Of a stretch of DNA of 15,727 nt, positions 5,427 through 12,891 are shown one piece after another; within the stretch, counting starts at the first letter, position 1; each line of letters starts with the position of its first letter. The position numbers and the translations under genes are program-made. The DNA lies in UHGV virus genome UHGV-0344409. One strand, written 5' to 3'. The stretch is from a virus. Under the pieces are notes generated by a model. The model did not search any database. It was not told the origin of the DNA and worked only from the letters and a program-made list of their open reading frames with translations.

Positions 5427-6197
5427 ATGGAAACCGTATTGCATGCACTGAAAGCGATGGGAAAAGCCAATTCTGTTGAACTGGCGGCGCGGCTTGATAT
5501 CAGCCGTGAAGAAGTTCTCAACGAACTGTGGGAACTCAAAAAAAATGGCGTTGTTGATAAAACGGGTCACACCTGGTTTCTGGCTGTCGAAGGTGAATCC
5601 CGGGTAACCGAAGAGCGGCCAGTAAAATCTGAAACACAGGATATGCTGACCGAAGAGGTCGCTCCAAAAGTTAGCGCTGACATGATGATTGAGTTTATCT
5701 CTCAGGAGGGGGCTAAAACCTGTGAAGAAATAGCGGGTAAGTTCGGAGTTACCACTCGCAAGGTTGCTTCCACGCTGGCGGTGGTAACCGCAACGGGGCG
5801 GCTGGCACGCGTTAATCAGAACGGTAAATTTCGTTACTGCATGCCGGGGGGTAATTTACCAGCAGATCCGAAAACCGCGCCGGTAACGGAAAATGATGGT
5901 AAGGCCTTTCCTCAGCCAGCAGGTGCTGCGTTACCAGTCCGGGAAGCCGCAACACAGGAAGAAATTAAAACAGAAACTGTGGCGGACATTGTGCAGTCGT
6001 TGCCATCGTTTACCGAAACGCAAGCAGATGAGCTGATTTTTCCGTCCCTGCGCAGGGCAAACCTGGCGCTGCGCAGGGCGAAAAGTGATGTTCAGAAGTG
6101 GGAGCGAGTCTGCGCCGCGCTGCGGGAGCTGAATAAACACCGGGATATTTTCAGTTCGATTGCCGATATTCCGGTTCATTCACCGACAACAAAGTGA
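5427..6197 (+). CDS. hypothetical protein with two winged-helix-like segments (256 aa)
   Basis: GAGG RBS 9 nt upstream; HTH-like blocks NSVELAARLDISREEVLNELWELKKNGVV and KTCEEIAGKFGVTTRKVASTLAVVTATGRL; acidic, Pro-rich middle. Confidence 0.6.
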   Translation: METVLHALKAMGKANSVELAARLDISREEVLNELWELKKNGVVDKTGHTWFLAVEGESRVTEERPVKSETQDMLTEEVAPKVSADMMIEFISQEGAKTCEEIAGKFGVTTRKVASTLAVVTATGRLARVNQNGKFRYCMPGGNLPADPKTAPVTENDGKAFPQPAGAALPVREAATQEEIKTETVADIVQSLPSFTETQADELIFPSLRRANLALRRAKSDVQKWERVCAALRELNKHRDIFSSIADIPVHSPTTK

Positions 6198-6212
6198 TCT
6201 CCGGAGGTGCTT

Positions 6213-6644
6213 ATGACAAGAGCATTTACACCAGAAGAGCGGGAAAAAATTAAGGGGCTGATCGTGGAATTCGTACGCCTTAACGGACGAGGCACGATTC
6301 GGCAGTTATCGGATGAAATTGGTGTCAGTCATGCGTCTGTCGGTCGTTTATGCATGGAGCTGGCCGCCAGTGGTGATGTTTACAATTCCGGTTACGGAGT
6401 ATTCCCGTCTGAACAGGCTCGTAAGGACTGGCAAAATGCCCGCAAAAAACTCTCAAGGGCAAAGTCGAAGAAACCGGTTGTCGTTGATCCAGACCTTATC
6501 CGGGCATTACCAGATGGGGAAATACGGCGCTACGACAGACGCTACAACACAATTTGTCGCGAGTGCCGTAACAGCGAAACGATGCAGCGTGTGCTGGCAT
6601 TCTGGCGAGGGAGTGCAGAGGGATTGATGTTCTCCCCGTCGTGA
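6213..6644 (+). CDS. hypothetical HTH-like protein (143 aa)
   Basis: ATG at 6213 with GGAGG 5 nt upstream (track starts at the GTG at 6207); HTH-like TIRQLSDEIGVSHASVGRLCMELAASGDV; basic C-terminal half. Confidence 0.6.
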   Translation: MTRAFTPEEREKIKGLIVEFVRLNGRGTIRQLSDEIGVSHASVGRLCMELAASGDVYNSGYGVFPSEQARKDWQNARKKLSRAKSKKPVVVDPDLIRALPDGEIRRYDRRYNTICRECRNSETMQRVLAFWRGSAEGLMFSPS

Positions 6645-6676: not shown

Positions 6677-7351
6677 TCATATAGAGGCTGAATCTGATCT
6701 TTTTTGTTCACGTCTGGCTTCCACCATTGCAGGCAGAGTGAAGGCGTAGACTAAAAACATTTCGGTAAAACTCAGGATCTGGCTTGCCTCAATTGGTGTG
6801 AAAACTTCATCTGTATGAACTGCTTTATTGGCATCAATTCGTACAATATGAGCCCATTCCTTCATCTGTTCAGTGATCAGGCCTTTTTTGTAAATCATCT
6901 GAATACGTTGCGACAGCGATTCTTTTCCTGCTTCATCGCCGAGCAGTTTTTTCGTGGAGATATCGAGGACTCTGCGACAAAGAATAACCACTGTGTCGTA
7001 CCGCCTCCTCTGTAAATCCTCTTTTGCCTCAACAAAAGTACGGTCTGCAACCGGGGGTGTATATTCTGGTGCGGTAATTTTTTTGACCACAGGATAGATC
7101 TTGCGGAAACGGTACTGGCTATTTCCTGAAATCAGAATATCGAGGTCTTTTTTCTGGCTTTCCGCCATGGGACCGTGATAGTGGTCTGATGGGATTTCAA
7201 CAATAGCAACACCTCCTCGATGACAACTTCTGCATACAAAAGCGACGTTAAAAAAAGGTGTTTTTTCAATTTGTTTTTCGGCAAATGCCTCAATAACAGC
7301 TCGCTCTTTTAAACAGTGCGGGCATGTGATATCAAAGGAGACTAAACCCAT
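6677..7351 (-). CDS. Zn-ribbon plus DUF4145-like domain protein (224 aa); candidate defence/abortive-infection cargo
   Basis: ORF track 6677..7423 trimmed to the ATG at 7351, with GAGGAA 5 nt upstream; N-terminal CPHC...CRSC pair; C-terminal LGDEAGKESLSQRIQMIYKKGLITEQMKEWAHIVRIDANKAVH...FLVYAF fits the DUF4145 pattern as recalled; opposite strand to flanking phage genes. Confidence 0.6.
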   Translation of the reverse strand: MGLVSFDITCPHCLKERAVIEAFAEKQIEKTPFFNVAFVCRSCHRGGVAIVEIPSDHYHGPMAESQKKDLDILISGNSQYRFRKIYPVVKKITAPEYTPPVADRTFVEAKEDLQRRRYDTVVILCRRVLDISTKKLLGDEAGKESLSQRIQMIYKKGLITEQMKEWAHIVRIDANKAVHTDEVFTPIEASQILSFTEMFLVYAFTLPAMVEARREQKRSDSASI

Positions 7352-7595
7352 GGATATTCCTCGCGAAATTAAAGAAATTAACGAAATCATTGAGGTTACT
7401 GATCGCCCCGAGTTTACCCTCATGCGTCGTTATGAAACAGGAACCGACGAACAAAAATACATCATGGTTGCAGCATTGGCTGTGATGGCGATAGAAAGGG
7501 AGCGAAGGGAAAAGGACGTAATGGTTATTCCTGAGAGAAATGATTCACCGGATTTGAGATGGCAGGAGCCGGAGTGGGATGTGGTAATCCGGTGA
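7350..7595 (+). CDS. hypothetical protein (81 aa); start overlaps the DUF4145-like gene start on the other strand
   Basis: ATG at 7350 with AGGAG 9 nt upstream (7336-7340); charged, non-repetitive sequence; lies antisense to the 5' extension of the minus ORF. Confidence 0.35.
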   Translation: MDIPREIKEINEIIEVTDRPEFTLMRRYETGTDEQKYIMVAALAVMAIERERREKDVMVIPERNDSPDLRWQEPEWDVVIR

Positions 7596-7649
7596 TTGAT
7601 ATTTCTCTGGGGTAAAGCGCCGCCAGAATGACGGCGCGGTAGTGGAGAG

Positions 7650-7958
7650 TTAAACGAAGCGGATCTGGAGTTTTTTCCCTGTAGCACGGGCGAATTTTTT
7701 CAGTGTGGCAAATGATGGGCCGCTTGTACCTGATGCAAGATTGCTTTCCATTCTGGTTATCGCAGTCGCTTTTGTTCCCATACGTTCAGCAACTTCAGCC
7801 TGGGTTAAGCCAGCTTCTTTTCGTGCTGCCAGCATTTCATCAAGTAGTGCGAATTCATCGGCGATGGCGTCGTATTCTGCTTTTACTGCGGGGTTAGACA
7901 ACATTTTTTCTACCATTTCATCGTGTGTCATGGTAGGTGGGGTACGTTTACCAGTCAT
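7650..7958 (-). CDS. HigA-like antitoxin (XRE-family HTH)
   Basis: 102 aa; strong AAGGAGG 6 nt upstream of the ATG at 7958; HTH LTQAEVAERMGTKATAITRME; start overlaps the upstream toxin gene by 11 nt. Confidence 0.75.
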   Translation of the reverse strand: MTGKRTPPTMTHDEMVEKMLSNPAVKAEYDAIADEFALLDEMLAARKEAGLTQAEVAERMGTKATAITRMESNLASGTSGPSFATLKKFARATGKKLQIRFV

Positions 7959-8277
7959 GCTTAACCTCCTTCATTCTGGTTTCAGCTTTTCTAAGCTCGG
8001 CAGGTGGAGTTTTTTGCGTTTTCTTTACAAAGCTATGCAACATAATGATTCGCTTTCCTTTTAGCGTGCAGTAAAAAACACGCCCTATGCCTTCCGAGCC
8101 CTTAAGGCGGATTTCAAACAAACCGTCGCCAAATGCCTCTGTATGCGGGGAACCAAGATTAGCTCCGTAAATACGCATTTTCTCCGTGTACCGAATGTAC
8201 CGGGCTTGTAAGGTCTCAGGAAGAGAAAGGATCTCAGCTTCAACCTCGTCACTGTAGTATTCGATAATGTAGTTCAT
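7948..8277 (-). CDS. HigB/RelE-family toxin (Gp49-like), toxin-first operon
   Basis: 109 aa from the ATG at 8277 (MNYIIEYYSDEVEAEILSLPE...RIIMLHSFVKKTQKTPPAEL), typical of HigB-like toxins; followed by the overlapping HTH antitoxin; candidate promoter TTGTCG-N17-TATATA on the minus strand (8329..8301). Confidence 0.7.
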   Translation of the reverse strand: MNYIIEYYSDEVEAEILSLPETLQARYIRYTEKMRIYGANLGSPHTEAFGDGLFEIRLKGSEGIGRVFYCTLKGKRIIMLHSFVKKTQKTPPAELRKAETRMKEVKHDW

Positions 8278-8300
8278 GAGAGTAAACATAACAAATTTGT

Positions 8301-8349
8301 TATATACATTCAAGGTATGTTGACGACAACACATATCCGGGATTATATT
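8301..8349. promoter_or_regulatory. back-to-back divergent sigma70-like promoters with overlapping -35 elements
   Basis: Plus strand: TTGACG (8320-8325), 17-18 nt spacer, TTATAT/TATATT (8343-8349). Minus strand: TTGTCG (revcomp of 8324-8329), 17 nt spacer, TATATA (8301-8306). Confidence 0.4.
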
Positions 8350-8411
8350 CTTCGCACGCCAGCAAAATCTGGCGTCGGGATTTGCACCCCGGATATTCAA
8401 CCGCGACAGAC

Positions 8412-8433
8412 ACACGCCGCGAGCGTGTTTTTT
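8412..8433 (+). terminator. intrinsic terminator-like hairpin in the leader upstream of the ORF6N gene
   Basis: ACACGC-cgcga-GCGTGT followed by TTTTT (8429-8433); about 75 nt downstream of the plus-strand promoter and 165 nt upstream of the ATG at 8598. Confidence 0.4.
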
Positions 8434-8597
8434 GTTGTCGTAAGCACACGCACATCTGAATTATGGTGGGGCGTATGGGGGAGCCGAAAGGCTCGCCGGT
8501 TGGTTGATCCGGTAGTGCAAACCCTGTACGTCTCACCACCCAAAGATTTGCACCTGACGGTGGTGATAGTTAAATTCATCAACCAGAGGGCGTTGTC

Positions 8598-9299
8598 ATG
8601 GCGACTCAAATTTCCGTTGAAACTCTTTCCCCAATTGCCTACAACCAGATCCCCGTAATTACTACAGAATTATTGGCGCAATTGTATGGCACTGAAACAG
8701 TCAATATAAAAATGAATTTTTCCCGTAACTCTGCGCGATTTGTACAGGGAAAACATTTCTTTAAGTTGGAAGGGAATGAACTACGTGAGTTTAAGCACAG
8801 ACTATCTTTAAGCGAGTCTGTTAGCCGCGAGGTAACAGAAAGTTACTCTGTGAAAATCGCCCGCAATGTTCGCTCCCTCATCCTCTGGACAGAACGCGGC
8901 GCAGCCCGTCACGCAAAAATGCTCGAAACCGATCAGGCGTGGGAAGTGTTCGAAAAACTGGAAGACTGCTATTTCAGCCAGGGAAAAACAGCACCAACCG
9001 AACAGCAGCCGCAGATTCAGCCACAATTCACAGCCGAGGAAATCATCCTCCTTTGCTACATGCAACTCTGGATGGAAAAAGCCCAGGACCTTAGCAAGCA
9101 GCTGTACCCCATAATGAAAGAGCTGAACTCCTCATACACGAACAAGCTGTATGACATTGCGTTTGAGACCATCTACATGGTGACGAAGAACAGAGACGCG
9201 CTACTAAGGGAGGTAACACGTCTCGACATGTCAAGTTCCGTTATCCAGCGGGCCATGCCAATGCTGAAAAGCCTGCGGGCAAGACAATTTGAATTCTGA
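8598..9299 (+). CDS. ORF6N-domain antirepressor-like protein
   Basis: 233 aa; AGAGGG RBS; N-terminal PVITTELLAQLYGTETVNIKMNFSRNSARFVQGKHFFKLEGNELREFK and ...WEVFEKLEDCYF fit the ORF6N (antirepressor N-terminal) pattern as recalled. Confidence 0.7.
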   Translation: MATQISVETLSPIAYNQIPVITTELLAQLYGTETVNIKMNFSRNSARFVQGKHFFKLEGNELREFKHRLSLSESVSREVTESYSVKIARNVRSLILWTERGAARHAKMLETDQAWEVFEKLEDCYFSQGKTAPTEQQPQIQPQFTAEEIILLCYMQLWMEKAQDLSKQLYPIMKELNSSYTNKLYDIAFETIYMVTKNRDALLREVTRLDMSSSVIQRAMPMLKSLRARQFEF

Positions 9300-9353: not shown

Positions 9354-9764
9354 ATGAACCAGACTATCTTCCTCCGAAGTAAGCAGCAGCAACAATTCGC
9401 CATTAACGCCATCCTTGCAACAACTCTCGATAAAGACAAACCCGTTACGATCCGTATCACCGATTACAAGCGTAATCTCGCTCAAAATGCAAAATTTCAC
9501 GCGATGGTCGCTGATATATCCCGCCAGGTTAAGTGGTGCGGCAGGTGGCTAAAACCAGAACAGTGGAAAGTTTTGTTAATCAGCGGTCATGCCGTGGCGA
9601 CAAAACAGGAAGCTGATGTTTTGCCAGGTCTTGAAGGTGAATACGTCAATATCCGCGAAAGCAGTGCGCAAATGAGCGTGAAGCGTATGGCAAGCCTGAT
9701 TGAGTACACAACATCCTGGGCCGTGGATCAGGGTGTCAGATTTACCGACAGGAGGTACGAATGA
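9354..9764 (+). CDS. ninB: NinB (Orf-family recombination mediator)
   Basis: 136 aa; similar to lambda NinB as recalled ([10 protein letters not shown]...; ...[15 protein letters not shown]); GAGG RBS; followed by nin genes. Confidence 0.8.
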
Positions 9765-12181: not shown

Positions 12182-12399
12182 CTCACAATTCCACAGCTTG
12201 ATGATTGTCTGGCTGCCGGAGAATTTGTTAAAAATTGCATCGCGTGGTGAATCCCCCTCAGCGGCGGGGCATCTGGCAAAGTGTATGATCCAGCGAACAT
12301 GCAAATTCAGTAGCCAGGCTGAATTTACCGGGAGGCACCTGGCACCATGCGACAGACAGAAATTAGGCTATACTTCAGCCCCTCTCCGGAGGGGCTTTT
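12182..12399 (+). repeat. structured non-coding repeat unit, copy A (candidate sRNA), ending in an intrinsic terminator
   Basis: Ordered conserved blocks shared with copy B: CTCACAATTC, GATTGTCTGG, TTTGTTAAAAA, GGTGAATCCCCCT, GCGGnGGGGCAT, CACCGGGAGGCACC, CACCATGC. Hairpin AAATTCAG-tagccagg-CTGAATTT (12303-12326); terminator GCCCCTC-tccg-GAGGGGC-TTTT (12378-12399). Confidence 0.6.
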
Positions 12400-12589
12400 C
12401 TGTGCAGGATGTGTCACAGTTTCCTGAATTCTGAGTACTGTCCTGTTACTCAGGGTGCTATATTTTCTGACGTGATGAAAGTCTGCCGGAAGGCGGAACG
12501 TATCGGAAATGACCCAGTAGAGAAAACGTTGACTCAGATACCGATGCTGAGTTACCGGGAAACCGGCATCACATGACCGCTATCCTTCC

Positions 12590-12650: not shown

Positions 12651-12882
12651 CTCACAATTCAGGCTGGCGATTATTGTCTGGCCAGCGGGAAGTTTGTTAA
12701 AAAAATATGGCATGGTGAATCCCCCTGTGCGGAGGGGCATATCAGCGACAGGTGTTTGGTCACACCCCTTATCCTTTCTGGTGCGGGTTCAGGTGCTGAT
12801 ACTGAACTCACCGGGAGGCACCCTGCACCATGCATGAACGGTACATAGCGCTACTCTCCAGCCCCTCTCCGGAGGGGCTTTC
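12651..12882 (+). repeat. structured non-coding repeat unit, copy B (candidate sRNA), ending in an intrinsic terminator
   Basis: Same block order as copy A; hairpin GGTTCAG-gtgctgata-CTGAACT (12786-12808) carries a compensatory A-T to G-C change relative to copy A; terminator GCCCCTC-tccg-GAGGGGC-TTTC (12861-12882). Confidence 0.6.
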
Positions 12883-12891
12883 TTGTTGGAT

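What the first reader, a model, noticed from the sequence alone, without database searches (positions are those of the whole stretch)
7650..8277. Toxin-first HigB/HigA-like pair on the cargo strand, possibly co-transcribed with the DUF4145-like gene
The gene order is toxin then XRE-HTH antitoxin with an 11-nt overlap, and the antitoxin has a strong RBS. The pair lies about 300 nt upstream, on the same strand, of the DUF4145-like gene, with only a weak hairpin (7617-7637) between them. Toxin, antitoxin and DUF4145 protein could therefore form one three-gene module.
Basis: partly seen in the sequence, partly recalled or inferred. Interest (0 to 1): 0.55.

Follow-up and report, generated by a model that had tools for sequence, protein, structure and literature searches.

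The report
Ordinary prophage HigBA toxin-antitoxin cassette
This is a standard, self-contained two-gene toxin-antitoxin cassette (Gp49-type HigB toxin plus XRE antitoxin) sitting in a swap-prone slot of a lambda-like E. coli prophage, and comparative genomics shows that it is not a fixed three-gene unit with the neighbouring DUF4145 gene.

Summary
7948-8277(-) encodes a 109-aa Gp49/PF05973 HigB-type toxin. 7650-7958(-) encodes a 102-aa XRE-HTH antitoxin. They overlap by 11 nt, and AAGGAGG lies 6 nt before the antitoxin ATG.

The three-gene reading is not supported, for four reasons.
- The "spacer" holds a conserved + strand gene (7350-7595).
- A conserved 9-bp GC hairpin follows the antitoxin stop.
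- The cassette (~7644-8318) is replaced by other TA families in otherwise identical prophages. The same TA also occurs without DUF4145 in other prophage types, and none of 80 species-level loci has a relative of this DUF4145 protein detectable by tblastn.
- DUF4145 homologues are solitary genes elsewhere. They share the architecture of RAZR (PD-T7-4), a single-gene defence RNase.

What flanks the TA consistently in the E. coli prophage loci examined is a divergent isrK/C4-antirepressor module.

One side result is mildly new. Across 74 loci the toxin has no Shine-Dalgarno motif. A TTG-17-TAnnnT promoter ends 5-9 nt before the start codon, and a TAACA-N4-TGTTA operator overlaps the -10. This suggests an autorepressed, leaderless toxin mRNA.

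Co-transcription with DUF4145 cannot be excluded by computation. No clear promoter for DUF4145 was found.

Verdict: a known kind, already annotated, of low interest.

The parts
7948..8277 (-). Toxin gene: 109-aa Gp49-type HigB (RelE superfamily)
   Evidence: Pfam PF05973 at 94.3 bits. phrog_2523 at E 2.6e-42, full length. PDB 6af3_A HigB at E 7e-5. AF2 model pLDDT 86. Foldseek best hits are S. pneumoniae HigB at TM 0.75 and M. tuberculosis HigB1 at TM 0.74. R57/R66/K85 align with the HigB1 catalytic residues R68/R77/K95 and are invariant in A1.
7650..7958 (-). Antitoxin gene: 102-aa XRE-family HTH (HigA-like), with no C-terminal extension
   Evidence: HTH_3 at E 3.6e-11, residues 44-98. Best PDB hit is 6af3_B, the cognate HigA of the toxin's best hit. 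It lies immediately downstream of the toxin in 79 of 80 species-level loci.
7965..7971 (-). Shine-Dalgarno AAGGAGG of the antitoxin, inside the toxin 3' end; the two genes overlap by 11 nt (7948-7958)
   Evidence: Read from the sequence. The same 11-nt overlap is kept in enterobacterial relatives L001, L004-L006, L008 and L011.
8285..8313 (-). Predicted TA promoter: -35 TTGAAT (8308-8313), 17-nt spacer, -10 TATGTT (8285-8290). The -10 ends 7 nt before the toxin ATG, which implies a leaderless or near-leaderless toxin mRNA
   Evidence: This is the only sigma-70-like site on the - strand in 8270-8345. TTG and TAT.TT are invariant in 7 enterobacterial loci from different contexts. In 70 of 74 species-level loci a TAnnnT ends 5-9 nt before the start codon, and 0 of 74 have an SD motif. 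The transcription start itself is inferred, not shown.
8288..8303 (.). Perfect 16-bp palindrome ATAACAAATTTGTTAT: candidate operator for the HTH antitoxin, overlapping the -10
   Evidence: It has a single copy in the window. It is conserved across genera. The core TAACA-N4-TGTTA recurs at the same place in most of the 74 loci. Binding is inferred by analogy with autorepressed Gp49-type higBA2 of A. baumannii (PMC5906591).
7617..7637 (-). GC-rich 9-bp hairpin 12 nt after the antitoxin stop, tail UUUACCCC. It is a probable (leaky?) terminator and marks the left edge of the exchangeable cassette
   Evidence: The 71-nt stretch containing it folds at -19.1 kcal/mol, z -3.6. It is unique in the window. 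It is conserved behind three different TA cassettes, and behind this TA in three other prophage contexts; the one change within the stem (C to T) keeps pairing as a G-U wobble.
7644..8318 (-). The exchangeable TA cassette as delimited by homology breakpoints
   Evidence: blastn of the window against L002, L003, L007 and L088: the left flank ends at 7638-7647 and the right flank resumes at 8318-8320. Unrelated TA genes lie in between.
7350..7595 (+). Neighbour, not part of the TA: conserved 81-aa phage gene on the opposite strand, filling the 'spacer'. Its ATG overlaps the DUF4145 ATG in the palindrome CATG
   Evidence: phrog_8371 at E 9.5e-56. Annotated in RefSeq genomes. Present without DUF4145 in L007. 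A Yersinia homologue has 52% aa identity and the same head-to-head overlap with a DUF4145 orthologue.
6677..7351 (-). Neighbour, not part of the TA: 224-aa Cys4 zinc-ribbon + DUF4145 (HEPN-like) protein, with RAZR/PD-T7-4-like architecture
   Evidence: PF13643 at 36.9 bits. C10/C13/C40/C43 and R171-x7-H179 are invariant. AF2 pLDDT 88. Foldseek best hits are HEPN proteins. PADLOC PD-T7-4 at E 0.0022. PDB 9y9c profile hit at E 0.16 with the R and H aligned.
8320..8543 (+). Neighbour, divergent from the TA: + strand promoter (8320-8349), isrK (8356-8433) and C4 antisense RNA (8459-8543), upstream of the ORF6N antirepressor gene (8598-9299)
   Evidence: Promoter TTGACG-18-TATATT scores 10/12. Rfam isrK at 75.4 bits against GA 50, and C4 at 74.4 bits against GA 45. 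ORF6N + P22_AR_C.

Best explanation
An autonomous, bicistronic type II toxin-antitoxin cassette of the Gp49-type HigBA kind, carried as a moron on the strand opposite to the early-right operon of a lambdoid (Stx-like) E. coli prophage.

Proposed mechanism, with shown and inferred steps marked:
1. A promoter (TTGAAT-17-TATGTT) drives a transcript that starts at or within 1-2 nt of the toxin AUG. The toxin, which has no Shine-Dalgarno motif, is therefore translated poorly. (Inferred from conserved geometry.)
2. The antitoxin is translated efficiently from AAGGAGG inside the toxin 3' end. (The sequence is shown; the efficiency is inferred.)
3. The XRE antitoxin neutralises the toxin and, as a dimer or as a TA complex, represses the promoter through the 16-bp palindrome overlapping the -10. 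(Inferred by homology with characterised HigBA systems.)
4. Free toxin is a ribosome-dependent mRNA endonuclease using R57/R66/K85. (Inferred from fold and conserved residues.)
5. Transcription mostly ends at the GC hairpin 7617-7637. (Inferred.)

The biological role is most likely prophage-borne abortive-infection defence and/or addiction. The cassette occupies a slot between that hairpin and the isrK/C4-antirepressor promoter, where different TA families replace each other. The DUF4145 gene is a separate, RAZR-like single-gene unit.
For: Family, fold and catalytic residues.

Pair conservation: the toxin is followed by the orthologous XRE antitoxin in 79 of 80 loci from different species. None of these has a tblastn hit to this DUF4145 protein within 3.5 kb, and the downstream genes vary in size and strand.

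Promoter, operator and start geometry are conserved in 7 enterobacterial and 74 species-level loci.

Cassette exchange: identical flanks hold PF05015 HigB + HigA (L003, L088), an orphan HigA plus ParD (L002, L101), or TumE + HVO_A0114 with no DUF4145 (L007).

The same TA without DUF4145 occurs in e14/CPS-53-like and P22-like prophages.

DUF4145 homologues occur alone next to int/xis, after replication genes, or between the lysis and terminase genes.

An IS3 insertion truncates DUF4145 while the TA stays 99.8% identical.

RAZR, which has the same domain architecture, protects as a single gene (PMC13017515).
Against: Nothing here is experimental. Toxicity, neutralisation, the transcription start and termination are all inferred.

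The hairpin has only three U's after it, so read-through into the antisense of 7350-7595 and on into DUF4145 is possible.

No sigma-70-like promoter scoring 8/12 or better was found for DUF4145 in 7340-7700. In E. coli the DUF4145 + small-ORF block was, in every case I inspected, followed by some toxin-first TA array in the same orientation. That leaves room for a looser functional linkage.

22 of the 74 homologous toxin genes start with GTG (count read by hand from the listing), which is unfavourable for leaderless translation in E. coli-like systems. A strong SD for the antitoxin is not family-wide (19 of 79 by a strict criterion).
Confidence: 0.8

Rival explanations
1. One reading: toxin, antitoxin and the DUF4145 protein form one co-transcribed three-gene module. 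For example, the TA promoter could feed the DUF4145 RNase gene, so that derepression of the TA during infection also raises the RAZR-like effector.
For: The genes share a strand and lie 298 nt apart. The hairpin has a weak U-tail. No good independent promoter was found for DUF4145. In the E. coli loci inspected, DUF4145 + small ORF is always followed by a toxin-first TA array in the same orientation, even on a different phage backbone. Three-component HigB-based systems do exist: HigBAC and PD-lambda-2.
Against: The TA partner of DUF4145 changes family while the flanks stay about 95% identical. The same TA occurs without DUF4145 in three other contexts, and none of the 80 species-level loci has a tblastn hit to this DUF4145 protein. 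DUF4145 orthologues in Yersinia, Enterobacter and Citrobacter have no TA upstream. A conserved opposite-strand gene and a conserved 9-bp GC hairpin lie between them. The antitoxin has no chaperone-addiction tail or peptidase domain. The TA stays intact where IS3 has destroyed DUF4145.
Confidence: 0.07
2. The pair is functionally tied to the divergent isrK/C4-antirepressor module rather than to DUF4145. For example, the HTH antitoxin could influence antirepressor expression and hence prophage induction.
For: In the eight E. coli prophage loci scanned (the window, L002-L007 and L088) a TA cassette sits back-to-back with an isrK/C4 RNA region and an Ant/Rha/ORF6N gene. The two -35 elements are only about 6 bp apart. 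In Edwardsiella the RNA family sRNA-Xcc1 lies divergently upstream of the TA; its relation to C4 was not checked.
Against: The right-hand cassette boundary (8318-8320) falls exactly at the edge of the + strand promoter, and unrelated TA families with other DNA-binding antitoxins occupy the same place. This looks like a permissive insertion slot rather than a regulatory partnership. The operator palindrome occurs once and does not overlap the + promoter. Most of the 80 non-phage loci show no such neighbour; this was not examined systematically.
Confidence: 0.05
3. The pair is a decaying or domesticated remnant: the toxin is inactive and the HTH protein acts only as a transcription factor.
For: The slot contains obvious debris in relatives: orphan HigA genes, and a 69-nt remnant of this antitoxin's 3' end in many O157 Stx2a prophages. 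Some Gp49-type HigB proteins (M. tuberculosis HigB2 and HigB3) are non-toxic (PMC9098466). Some public annotations call only a 76-aa toxin.
Against: The full 109-aa frame is intact. It is 65-91% identical to homologues across Proteobacteria, with the catalytic R/R/K, F83, Q88 and K89 all present. The promoter, operator and overlap are also intact and conserved. The 12 E. coli copies are at least 99.7% identical.
Confidence: 0.06

Closest known systems
Streptococcus pneumoniae HigBA (PDB 6AF3/6AF4)
   Same: It is the best sequence hit in the PDB for both the toxin (E 7e-5; 1.9e-7 with a profile) and the antitoxin (E 1.4e-3), and the best fold match for the toxin (TM 0.74-0.76). It shares the Gp49-type toxin with the H-x-F-x-K-(K/R)-T-Q-K-T-P motif, the toxin-first order and the XRE antitoxin.
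   Different: Identity is only about 20%. The host is Gram-positive and the locus is chromosomal. Nothing is known there about a leaderless arrangement or about a phage cassette slot.
Mycobacterium tuberculosis HigB1 (Rv1955) of the TAC system, and E. coli NT1F31 HigBAC
   Same: The same Gp49-type fold with a long C-terminal helix (TM 0.74). Catalytic R68/R77/K95 correspond to R57/R66/K85 here. The mechanism is ribosome-dependent mRNA cleavage. HigBAC is also carried by a lambdoid prophage and defends against phages.
   Different: TAC systems need a SecB-like chaperone as a third gene and a ChAD tail on the antitoxin. Here the antitoxin ends at the HTH (102 aa) and the nearby third gene is a DUF4145 protein, not SecB. 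HigBAC lies next to cI, not in the nin/ant region.
Acinetobacter baumannii HigBA2 (GP49-domain toxin)
   Same: A Gp49-type toxin comes first and an XRE antitoxin second. The operon is autorepressed by the antitoxin, with the toxin as co-repressor. There is a single transcript and no internal antitoxin promoter (PMC5906591).
   Different: It is plasmid-borne. That paper states that how reversed TA operons set the toxin:antitoxin ratio is unknown. The conserved leaderless geometry seen here is a candidate answer for this subfamily, but it is untested.
Proteus vulgaris Rts1 HigBA and the PF05015 HigB-like / HigA pairs
   Same: The same toxin-first logic. A PF05015 pair occupies exactly the same slot in sister prophages (L003, L088).
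   Different: It is a different Pfam family (PF05015, not PF05973) with no detectable DNA similarity. It is an alternative cassette, not a homologue at the sequence level.
RAZR / PD-T7-4 (for the neighbouring DUF4145 gene)
   Same: An N-terminal Cys4 zinc ribbon plus a C-terminal DUF4145 (divergent HEPN) domain with R-x7-H. The size is similar (the RAZR chain 9y9c is 219 aa; this protein is 224 aa). It is a single-gene system often found in prophage or integrase contexts.
   Different: Sequence similarity is marginal (PADLOC E 0.0022; PDB 9y9c E 0.16). The trigger and activity of this Enterobacterales clade are untested. Here and in Yersinia it is paired head-to-head with a small conserved gene.

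Membership tests
Gp49-type HigB toxin (PF05973, RelE/ParE superfamily) | Significant match to the family profile over its full length | tested here: met
   PF05973 at 94.3 bits (cut-off 23.9), profile positions 2-90 of 90. There are 2354 homologues, the closest 65-98% identical and 107-113 aa long.
Gp49-type HigB toxin (PF05973, RelE/ParE superfamily) | RelE-like fold: antiparallel beta-sheet flanked by helices, plus the long C-terminal helix typical of Gp49-like toxins | tested here: met
   AF2 model with pLDDT 86, showing beta-strands, helices 10-17 and 21-37, and a C-terminal helix 92-107. Foldseek hits are 6af3/6af4 at TM 0.75, 7nbu HigB1 at TM 0.74, then RelE, HigB2, YafQ and YoeB. The long alpha-3 is described as a Gp49 trait in PMC9098466.
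Gp49-type HigB toxin (PF05973, RelE/ParE superfamily) | Catalytic basic residues equivalent to HigB1 R68/R77/K95 (RelE K54/R61/R81) | tested here: met
   The profile alignment to HigB1 places R57, R66 and K85 (and F83, Q88, K89) at these positions. R57, R66, F83, K85 and K89 are invariant in A1; Q88 is present in the window but varies among the homologues. Residue roles are taken from PMC9098466.
Gp49-type HigB toxin (PF05973, RelE/ParE superfamily) | Toxicity through ribosome-dependent mRNA cleavage | not testable with these tools
   Needs kill/rescue and in vitro translation or cleavage assays.
Type II HigBA operon (reversed order, XRE antitoxin) | The toxin gene lies immediately upstream of a cognate XRE-HTH antitoxin gene, and the synteny is conserved | tested here: met
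   HTH_3 at E 3.6e-11. The orthologous antitoxin is adjacent in 79 of 80 loci; the exception is a contig end. The best PDB hits of the two proteins are the two chains of one complex, 6af3.
Type II HigBA operon (reversed order, XRE antitoxin) | Autoregulation through an operator at the promoter | tested here: inconclusive
   A perfect 16-bp palindrome overlaps the predicted -10 and is conserved across genera and across 74 loci. Binding and repression were not tested.
Toxin-antitoxin-chaperone (TAC / HigBAC) tripartite systems | A SecB-like chaperone as the third gene, and a C-terminal ChAD extension on the antitoxin | tested here: not met
   The antitoxin is 102 aa and its HTH reaches residue 98. 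The downstream same-strand gene is DUF4145, with no SecB match. TAC features are as described.
PD-lambda-2 (HigB-like + Xre-peptidase + P4-antitoxin-like) | A peptidase domain fused to the Xre antitoxin, and a third antitoxin-like gene | tested here: not met
   The antitoxin has only HTH families, and there is no PADLOC PD-lambda-2 hit. The system is as described in PMC9519451.
Proposed three-gene module (toxin + antitoxin + DUF4145) | Conserved co-occurrence and order of the three genes across relatives | tested here: not met
   None of the 80 TA loci from other species has a tblastn hit to this DUF4145 protein. The TA occurs alone in L004-L006. DUF4145 occurs alone in L090-L098. DUF4145 occurs with other TA families in L002, L003, L088 and L100.
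Proposed three-gene module (toxin + antitoxin + DUF4145) | A single transcript across 7352-7650 | not testable with these tools
   Against: a hairpin (its 71-nt stretch folds at -19.1 kcal/mol) and an opposite-strand gene lie in between. For: the U-tract is weak and no clear DUF4145 promoter was found. Needs RNA-seq or RT-PCR.
RAZR / PD-T7-4 (neighbouring DUF4145 gene) | An N-terminal Cys4 zinc ribbon plus a C-terminal DUF4145/HEPN-like domain with catalytic R and H | tested here: met
   C10, C13, C40, C43, R171 and H179 are invariant in 22 homologues. PF13643 at 36.9 bits. Foldseek best hits are HEPN proteins 1o3u, 7ae6 and 5yep. RAZR features are from PMC13017515.
RAZR / PD-T7-4 (neighbouring DUF4145 gene) | Sequence-level membership of the PD-T7-4 family | tested here: inconclusive
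   PADLOC PD-T7-4 at E 0.0022, partial. Profile against PDB 9y9c at E 0.16, with the R...H motif aligned. phmmer finds nothing.

The most novel reading that the evidence does not exclude
The physical linkage may be functional after all, in a loose and regulatory way. When the antitoxin is lost during infection, the derepressed TA promoter could read through the U-poor hairpin. That transcript would run antisense across the small + strand gene (7350-7595) and into the RAZR-like DUF4145 gene, which lacks an obvious promoter of its own. One sensor, the labile antitoxin, would then boost a second abortive-infection RNase. This would explain why E. coli DUF4145 + small-ORF blocks are always followed by some toxin-first TA array in the same orientation, whatever its family.
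Probability: 0.06. Interest if true: 0.55.

Novelty: already known. Interest (0 to 1): 0.2.

Why it matters
As a toxin-antitoxin pair it matters little. It is a well-populated Pfam family. RefSeq already annotates it as a RelE/ParE-family toxin plus an HTH protein, and the GenBank record of phage PhiR5_2 calls it HigB/HigA.

The useful outcomes are corrective and contextual.
1. The three-gene idea should not be carried forward without transcript data.
2. The neighbouring DUF4145 gene is better viewed as a RAZR-like single-gene defence candidate.
3. The slot between a conserved hairpin and the isrK/C4-antirepressor promoter is a place where lambdoid, e14-like and P22-like prophages swap TA cassettes. 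This is of practical interest for mining prophage defence or addiction genes.
4. The family-wide geometry of no SD, a -10 ending 5-9 nt before the start codon, and an operator over the -10 offers a testable answer to how reversed (toxin-first) Gp49-type operons keep toxin translation below antitoxin translation.

Tried and rejected
1. I looked for a terminator after the antitoxin as a family trait. In 77 species-level loci only 4 have a hairpin plus a T-rich tail within 70 nt, and folding energies do not differ from control windows. The hairpin is therefore specific to the E. coli prophage contexts and is not a feature of the TA family.

2. I tested whether a strong SD for the antitoxin is family-wide. 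Only 19 of 79 loci pass a strict criterion, so that claim is limited to the enterobacterial copies.

3. I suspected a tRNA-like remnant upstream of the toxin, because of a T-arm-like motif and a hairpin with apparently compensatory changes. ARAGORN finds no tRNA. The structures belong to the + strand isrK/C4 RNAs.

4. The standard promoter scan (9/12 or better) found no TA promoter. A relaxed scan found exactly one (8/12), and comparative conservation supports it.

5. I searched for a DUF4145 promoter and found none at 8/12 or better. There is only a weak conserved GTTTCA-16-TAAACT, and its conservation is confounded by the overlapping coding frame.

6. phmmer of the DUF4145 protein against the PDB found nothing. 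Foldseek did not return the RAZR entry itself, only generic HEPN proteins, at weak E-values.

7. A literature search for leaderless higBA transcripts found nothing specific.

8. Tools not used: the search of protein representatives, the viral and metagenome contig scans, and covariance-model building. None was needed for the verdict.
Full report
**What is there**

The window is the early-right/nin region of a lambdoid, Stx-like E. coli prophage. On the + strand it encodes:
- a DUF1627 protein (5427-6197);
- a DUF977/Ren-like protein (6207-6644);
- an ORF6N antirepressor (8598-9299);
- NinB (9354-9764), followed by the usual nin genes.

The window is about 97% identical over 11 kb to phage PhiR5_2.

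Two units lie on the opposite strand. The first is a 224-aa DUF4145 gene (6677-7351).

The stated details are all correct when read from the sequence. The ORFs overlap by 11 nt. AAGGAGG (7965-7971) lies 6 nt before the antitoxin ATG. A hairpin lies at 7617-7637.

**Identity of the pair**

The toxin matches Pfam Gp49/PF05973 over the whole profile, at 94.3 bits against a gathering score of 23.9. The antitoxin matches HTH_3 at E 3.6e-11.

In the PDB, the best sequence hits of the two proteins are the two chains of the same complex, S. pneumoniae HigB-HigA, 6AF3.

A 20-sequence alignment of homologues that are 65-91% identical confirms the ATG-8277 start, because all begin M-x-Y-x-I. The shorter 76-aa toxin called in some public records would remove the first strand and two helices.

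The AlphaFold model has pLDDT 86. Its best fold matches are S. pneumoniae HigB (TM 0.75) and ribosome-bound M. tuberculosis HigB1 (TM 0.74), followed by RelE, HigB2, YafQ and YoeB.

A profile alignment to HigB1 places R57, R66 and K85 on the catalytic R68, R77 and K95. It also places F83, Q88 and K89 on F93, Q98 and K99. R57, R66, F83, K85 and K89 are invariant in the family alignment; Q88 is not.

The antitoxin stops four residues after its HTH. It therefore has neither the chaperone-addiction tail of TAC antitoxins nor a peptidase domain.

**Is it a conserved two-gene unit?**

Yes. In 80 loci from different GTDB species (Gamma- and Betaproteobacteria, Nitrospirota and others), 79 have the orthologous XRE antitoxin directly after the toxin. 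The one exception is a contig end. The genes further downstream differ in size and strand from locus to locus. None of the loci has a tblastn hit to the window's DUF4145 protein.

**Regulatory anatomy**

The standard promoter scan found nothing upstream of the toxin. A relaxed scan finds a single site, TTGAAT (8308-8313), a 17-nt spacer, then TATGTT (8285-8290).

This site and a perfect 16-bp palindrome, ATAACAAATTTGTTAT (8288-8303, unique in the window), are the most conserved DNA in an alignment of seven enterobacterial loci from quite different contexts.

Across 74 species-level loci:
- 0 have a Shine-Dalgarno-like motif before the toxin start;
- 70 have a TAnnnT hexamer ending 5-9 nt (mostly 6-7) before the start codon;
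- a TTG lies about 17 nt further upstream;
- a TAACA-N4-TGTTA inverted repeat sits between them and overlaps the -10.

From this I infer an autorepressed promoter whose transcript begins at or next to the toxin start codon, that is, a leaderless toxin mRNA.

In the window and its enterobacterial relatives this contrasts with the strong SD of the antitoxin. It would give antitoxin excess despite the reversed gene order. The A. baumannii HigBA2 paper explicitly calls that question open.

There are caveats:
- 22 of the 74 start codons are GTG (my count from the listing).
- A strong antitoxin SD is not family-wide (19 of 79).
- No transcription start has been mapped.

**The 'spacer' and the hairpin**

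The 298 nt between the antitoxin stop and the DUF4145 start are not empty.

A + strand gene (7350-7595, 81 aa) matches phrog_8371 over its full length at E 9.5e-56. It is annotated in RefSeq genomes. It is present without DUF4145 in L007. It has a Yersinia homologue with 52% amino-acid identity (E 2e-16), which settles that it is a real coding gene.

Its ATG and the DUF4145 ATG share the tetranucleotide CATG. The same arrangement occurs in Yersinia.

The hairpin has a 9-bp stem with 7 G-C pairs. The 71-nt stretch that contains it folds at -19.1 kcal/mol, z -3.6, with 1 of 200 shuffles folding as well. It begins 12 nt after the antitoxin stop and is followed by UUUACCCC. So it is strong as a stem and poor as a U-tract.

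The hairpin is conserved behind three different TA cassettes, and behind this TA in three other prophage types. The only change within the stem is a C-to-U that keeps a G-U pair. It is not a family-wide feature: only 4 of 77 loci have any terminator-like site after the antitoxin.

**Natural experiments on the three-gene idea**

*Homology breakpoints.* Comparison with sister prophages places the breakpoints at 7638-7647 and 8318-8320. This delimits a cassette of about 675 bp that contains the two genes, the promoter and the operator.

*Other cassettes between the same flanks.* Other E. coli prophages carry:
- a PF05015 HigB-like toxin plus a HigA-family antitoxin (L003, L088);
- an orphan HigA, a 69-nt scar of this very antitoxin, a hypothetical gene and a ParD antitoxin (L002, and O157 Stx2a prophages such as L101);
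- an orphan HigA stacked on a Gp49/XRE pair (L099);
- another RelE-type pair (L100);
- a TumE/HVO_A0114 pair in a prophage that has no DUF4145 gene at all (L007).

*The TA without DUF4145.* Allelic variants of the Gp49/XRE pair (the toxin region 71-73% identical at the protein level in tblastn) sit without any DUF4145 gene in e14/CPS-53-like prophages, between a DUF4222 gene and a Rha/Ash gene. They also sit in a P22-like nin region, between NinE and Ant.

*DUF4145 without a TA.* DUF4145 homologues of 44-50% identity are solitary opposite-strand genes in three settings, none with a TA:
- next to int/xis in Enterobacter;
- after the replication genes in Yersinia;
- between the lysis and terminase genes in Citrobacter.

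*A natural knock-out.* In strain S1-CAM-02-A an IS3 element removes the HEPN-like half of DUF4145 while the TA remains 99.8% identical.

*Counts in 5426 complete E. coli genomes.* 12 carry this TA essentially unchanged. 36 carry the DUF4145 + small-ORF block. 475 carry the right-hand flank.

**What the neighbours are**

*DUF4145 protein.* It has an invariant Cys4 zinc ribbon (C10, C13, C40, C43) and an invariant R171-x7-H179 in a helical domain. The model has pLDDT 88, and the Foldseek best hits are HEPN proteins.

This is the architecture of RAZR (PD-T7-4). RAZR is a single-gene abortive-infection RNase with catalytic R146/H154, activated by assembling around phage portal or ring proteins (PMC13017515; PMC9519451).

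Sequence-level membership is marginal: PADLOC E 0.0022, and a profile against the RAZR cryo-EM chain 9y9c at E 0.16 with the R and H aligned. I therefore call it RAZR-like, not RAZR.

*The right-hand side.* Immediately beyond the right cassette boundary a + strand promoter (TTGACG-18-TATATT, 8320-8349) precedes matches above threshold to isrK (8356-8433, 75.4 bits) and the P1-type C4 antisense RNA (8459-8543, 74.4 bits). The ORF6N antirepressor gene follows.

All eight E. coli prophage loci scanned with Rfam (the window, L002-L007 and L088) have the same isrK and C4 RNA matches next to a TA cassette, which sits back-to-back with an antirepressor-type gene. This RNA/antirepressor module, not DUF4145, is the constant neighbour of the cassette in those loci.

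**Assessment**

The pair is an ordinary, apparently intact Gp49-type HigBA toxin-antitoxin cassette. It sits in a swap-prone slot bounded by a conserved hairpin and the antirepressor control region. Its likely role is phage exclusion and/or prophage addiction, as for other prophage HigB-type systems, but this is inference.

The three-gene module is not supported as a genetic unit.

I cannot exclude transcriptional read-through into DUF4145, for three reasons:
- the U-tract is weak;
- I found no convincing promoter for DUF4145;
- every E. coli DUF4145 block I inspected has some toxin-first TA array upstream in the same orientation.

I give that looser coupling about 6-7%.

**Novelty and interest**

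The family is in Pfam. This very pair is already annotated in RefSeq as a RelE/ParE-family toxin plus an HTH protein, and in GenBank as HigB/HigA of phage PhiR5_2. It is therefore already known in kind, and interest is low (0.2).

The mildly new points are by-products. They are the family-wide leaderless promoter-operator geometry, the TA-exchange slot next to isrK/C4-ant, and the RAZR-like protein paired head-to-head with a small conserved gene.

Noticed in passing
window 8320-8543 (+), with 8598-9299: A P1-immI-like control region lies on the + strand. It consists of a promoter (8320-8349), isrK (8356-8433, 75 bits), C4 antisense RNA (8459-8543, 74 bits) and a sub-threshold a1/b1 target match (8343-8395), upstream of an ORF6N/P22_AR_C antirepressor gene. 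The same RNA pair flanks TA cassettes of several different families in the eight E. coli prophage loci scanned.
   Followed up: partly
window 7350-7595 (+) and 6677-7351 (-); L094/L095 3281-3502 and 3501-4148: An 81-aa conserved phage gene (phrog_8371) starts head-to-head with the DUF4145 gene, the two ATGs sharing CATG. The same arrangement occurs in Yersinia, where the small protein is 52% identical and the DUF4145 protein 47-49%. Each gene can also occur alone (L007; L090, L096). Whether the small protein modulates the HEPN-like RNase is unknown.
   Followed up: partly
window 6677-7351 (-): The DUF4145 protein has the zinc-ribbon + HEPN-like (R-x7-H) architecture of the recently characterised RAZR/PD-T7-4 defence RNase, but only marginal sequence similarity. 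It belongs to a clade of 83 homologues, named almost entirely from Enterobacterales, that is typically found as solitary prophage morons.
   Followed up: partly
window 7650-7718; e.g. L002 3966-4036, L101 3001-3069: A 69-71-nt remnant of the 3' end of this antitoxin gene (94-96% identical) persists, unannotated, in many O157:H7 and other Stx2a prophages. It lies between an orphan HigA gene and a hypothetical/ParD pair, and looks like a scar of cassette replacement.
   Followed up: partly
L001 7449-7679; L004 4299-4529; L102 3799-4029: Several public annotations call the toxin as 76 aa, starting at internal Met34, instead of 109 aa.
   Followed up: yes
window 12212-12405 and 12681-12890 (+): There are two tandem full-length matches to the Rfam sRNA family STnc100 (139 and 130 bits), downstream in the late-gene regulatory region of the prophage.
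   Followed up: no
window 8412-8428 (+): A terminator-like hairpin with a good T-tract (ACACGCCGCGAGCGTGT TTTTTGTTGT) coincides with the 3' end of the isrK match. This is consistent with isrK being a discrete short transcript.
   Followed up: no
L007 5579-5669; L011 3086-3171: Rfam sRNA-Xcc1 matches (67-69 bits) precede a BRO-family gene in an E. coli prophage. In Edwardsiella ictaluri a match lies divergently upstream of the Gp49/XRE pair. I did not check whether this RNA family is related to C4.
   Followed up: no
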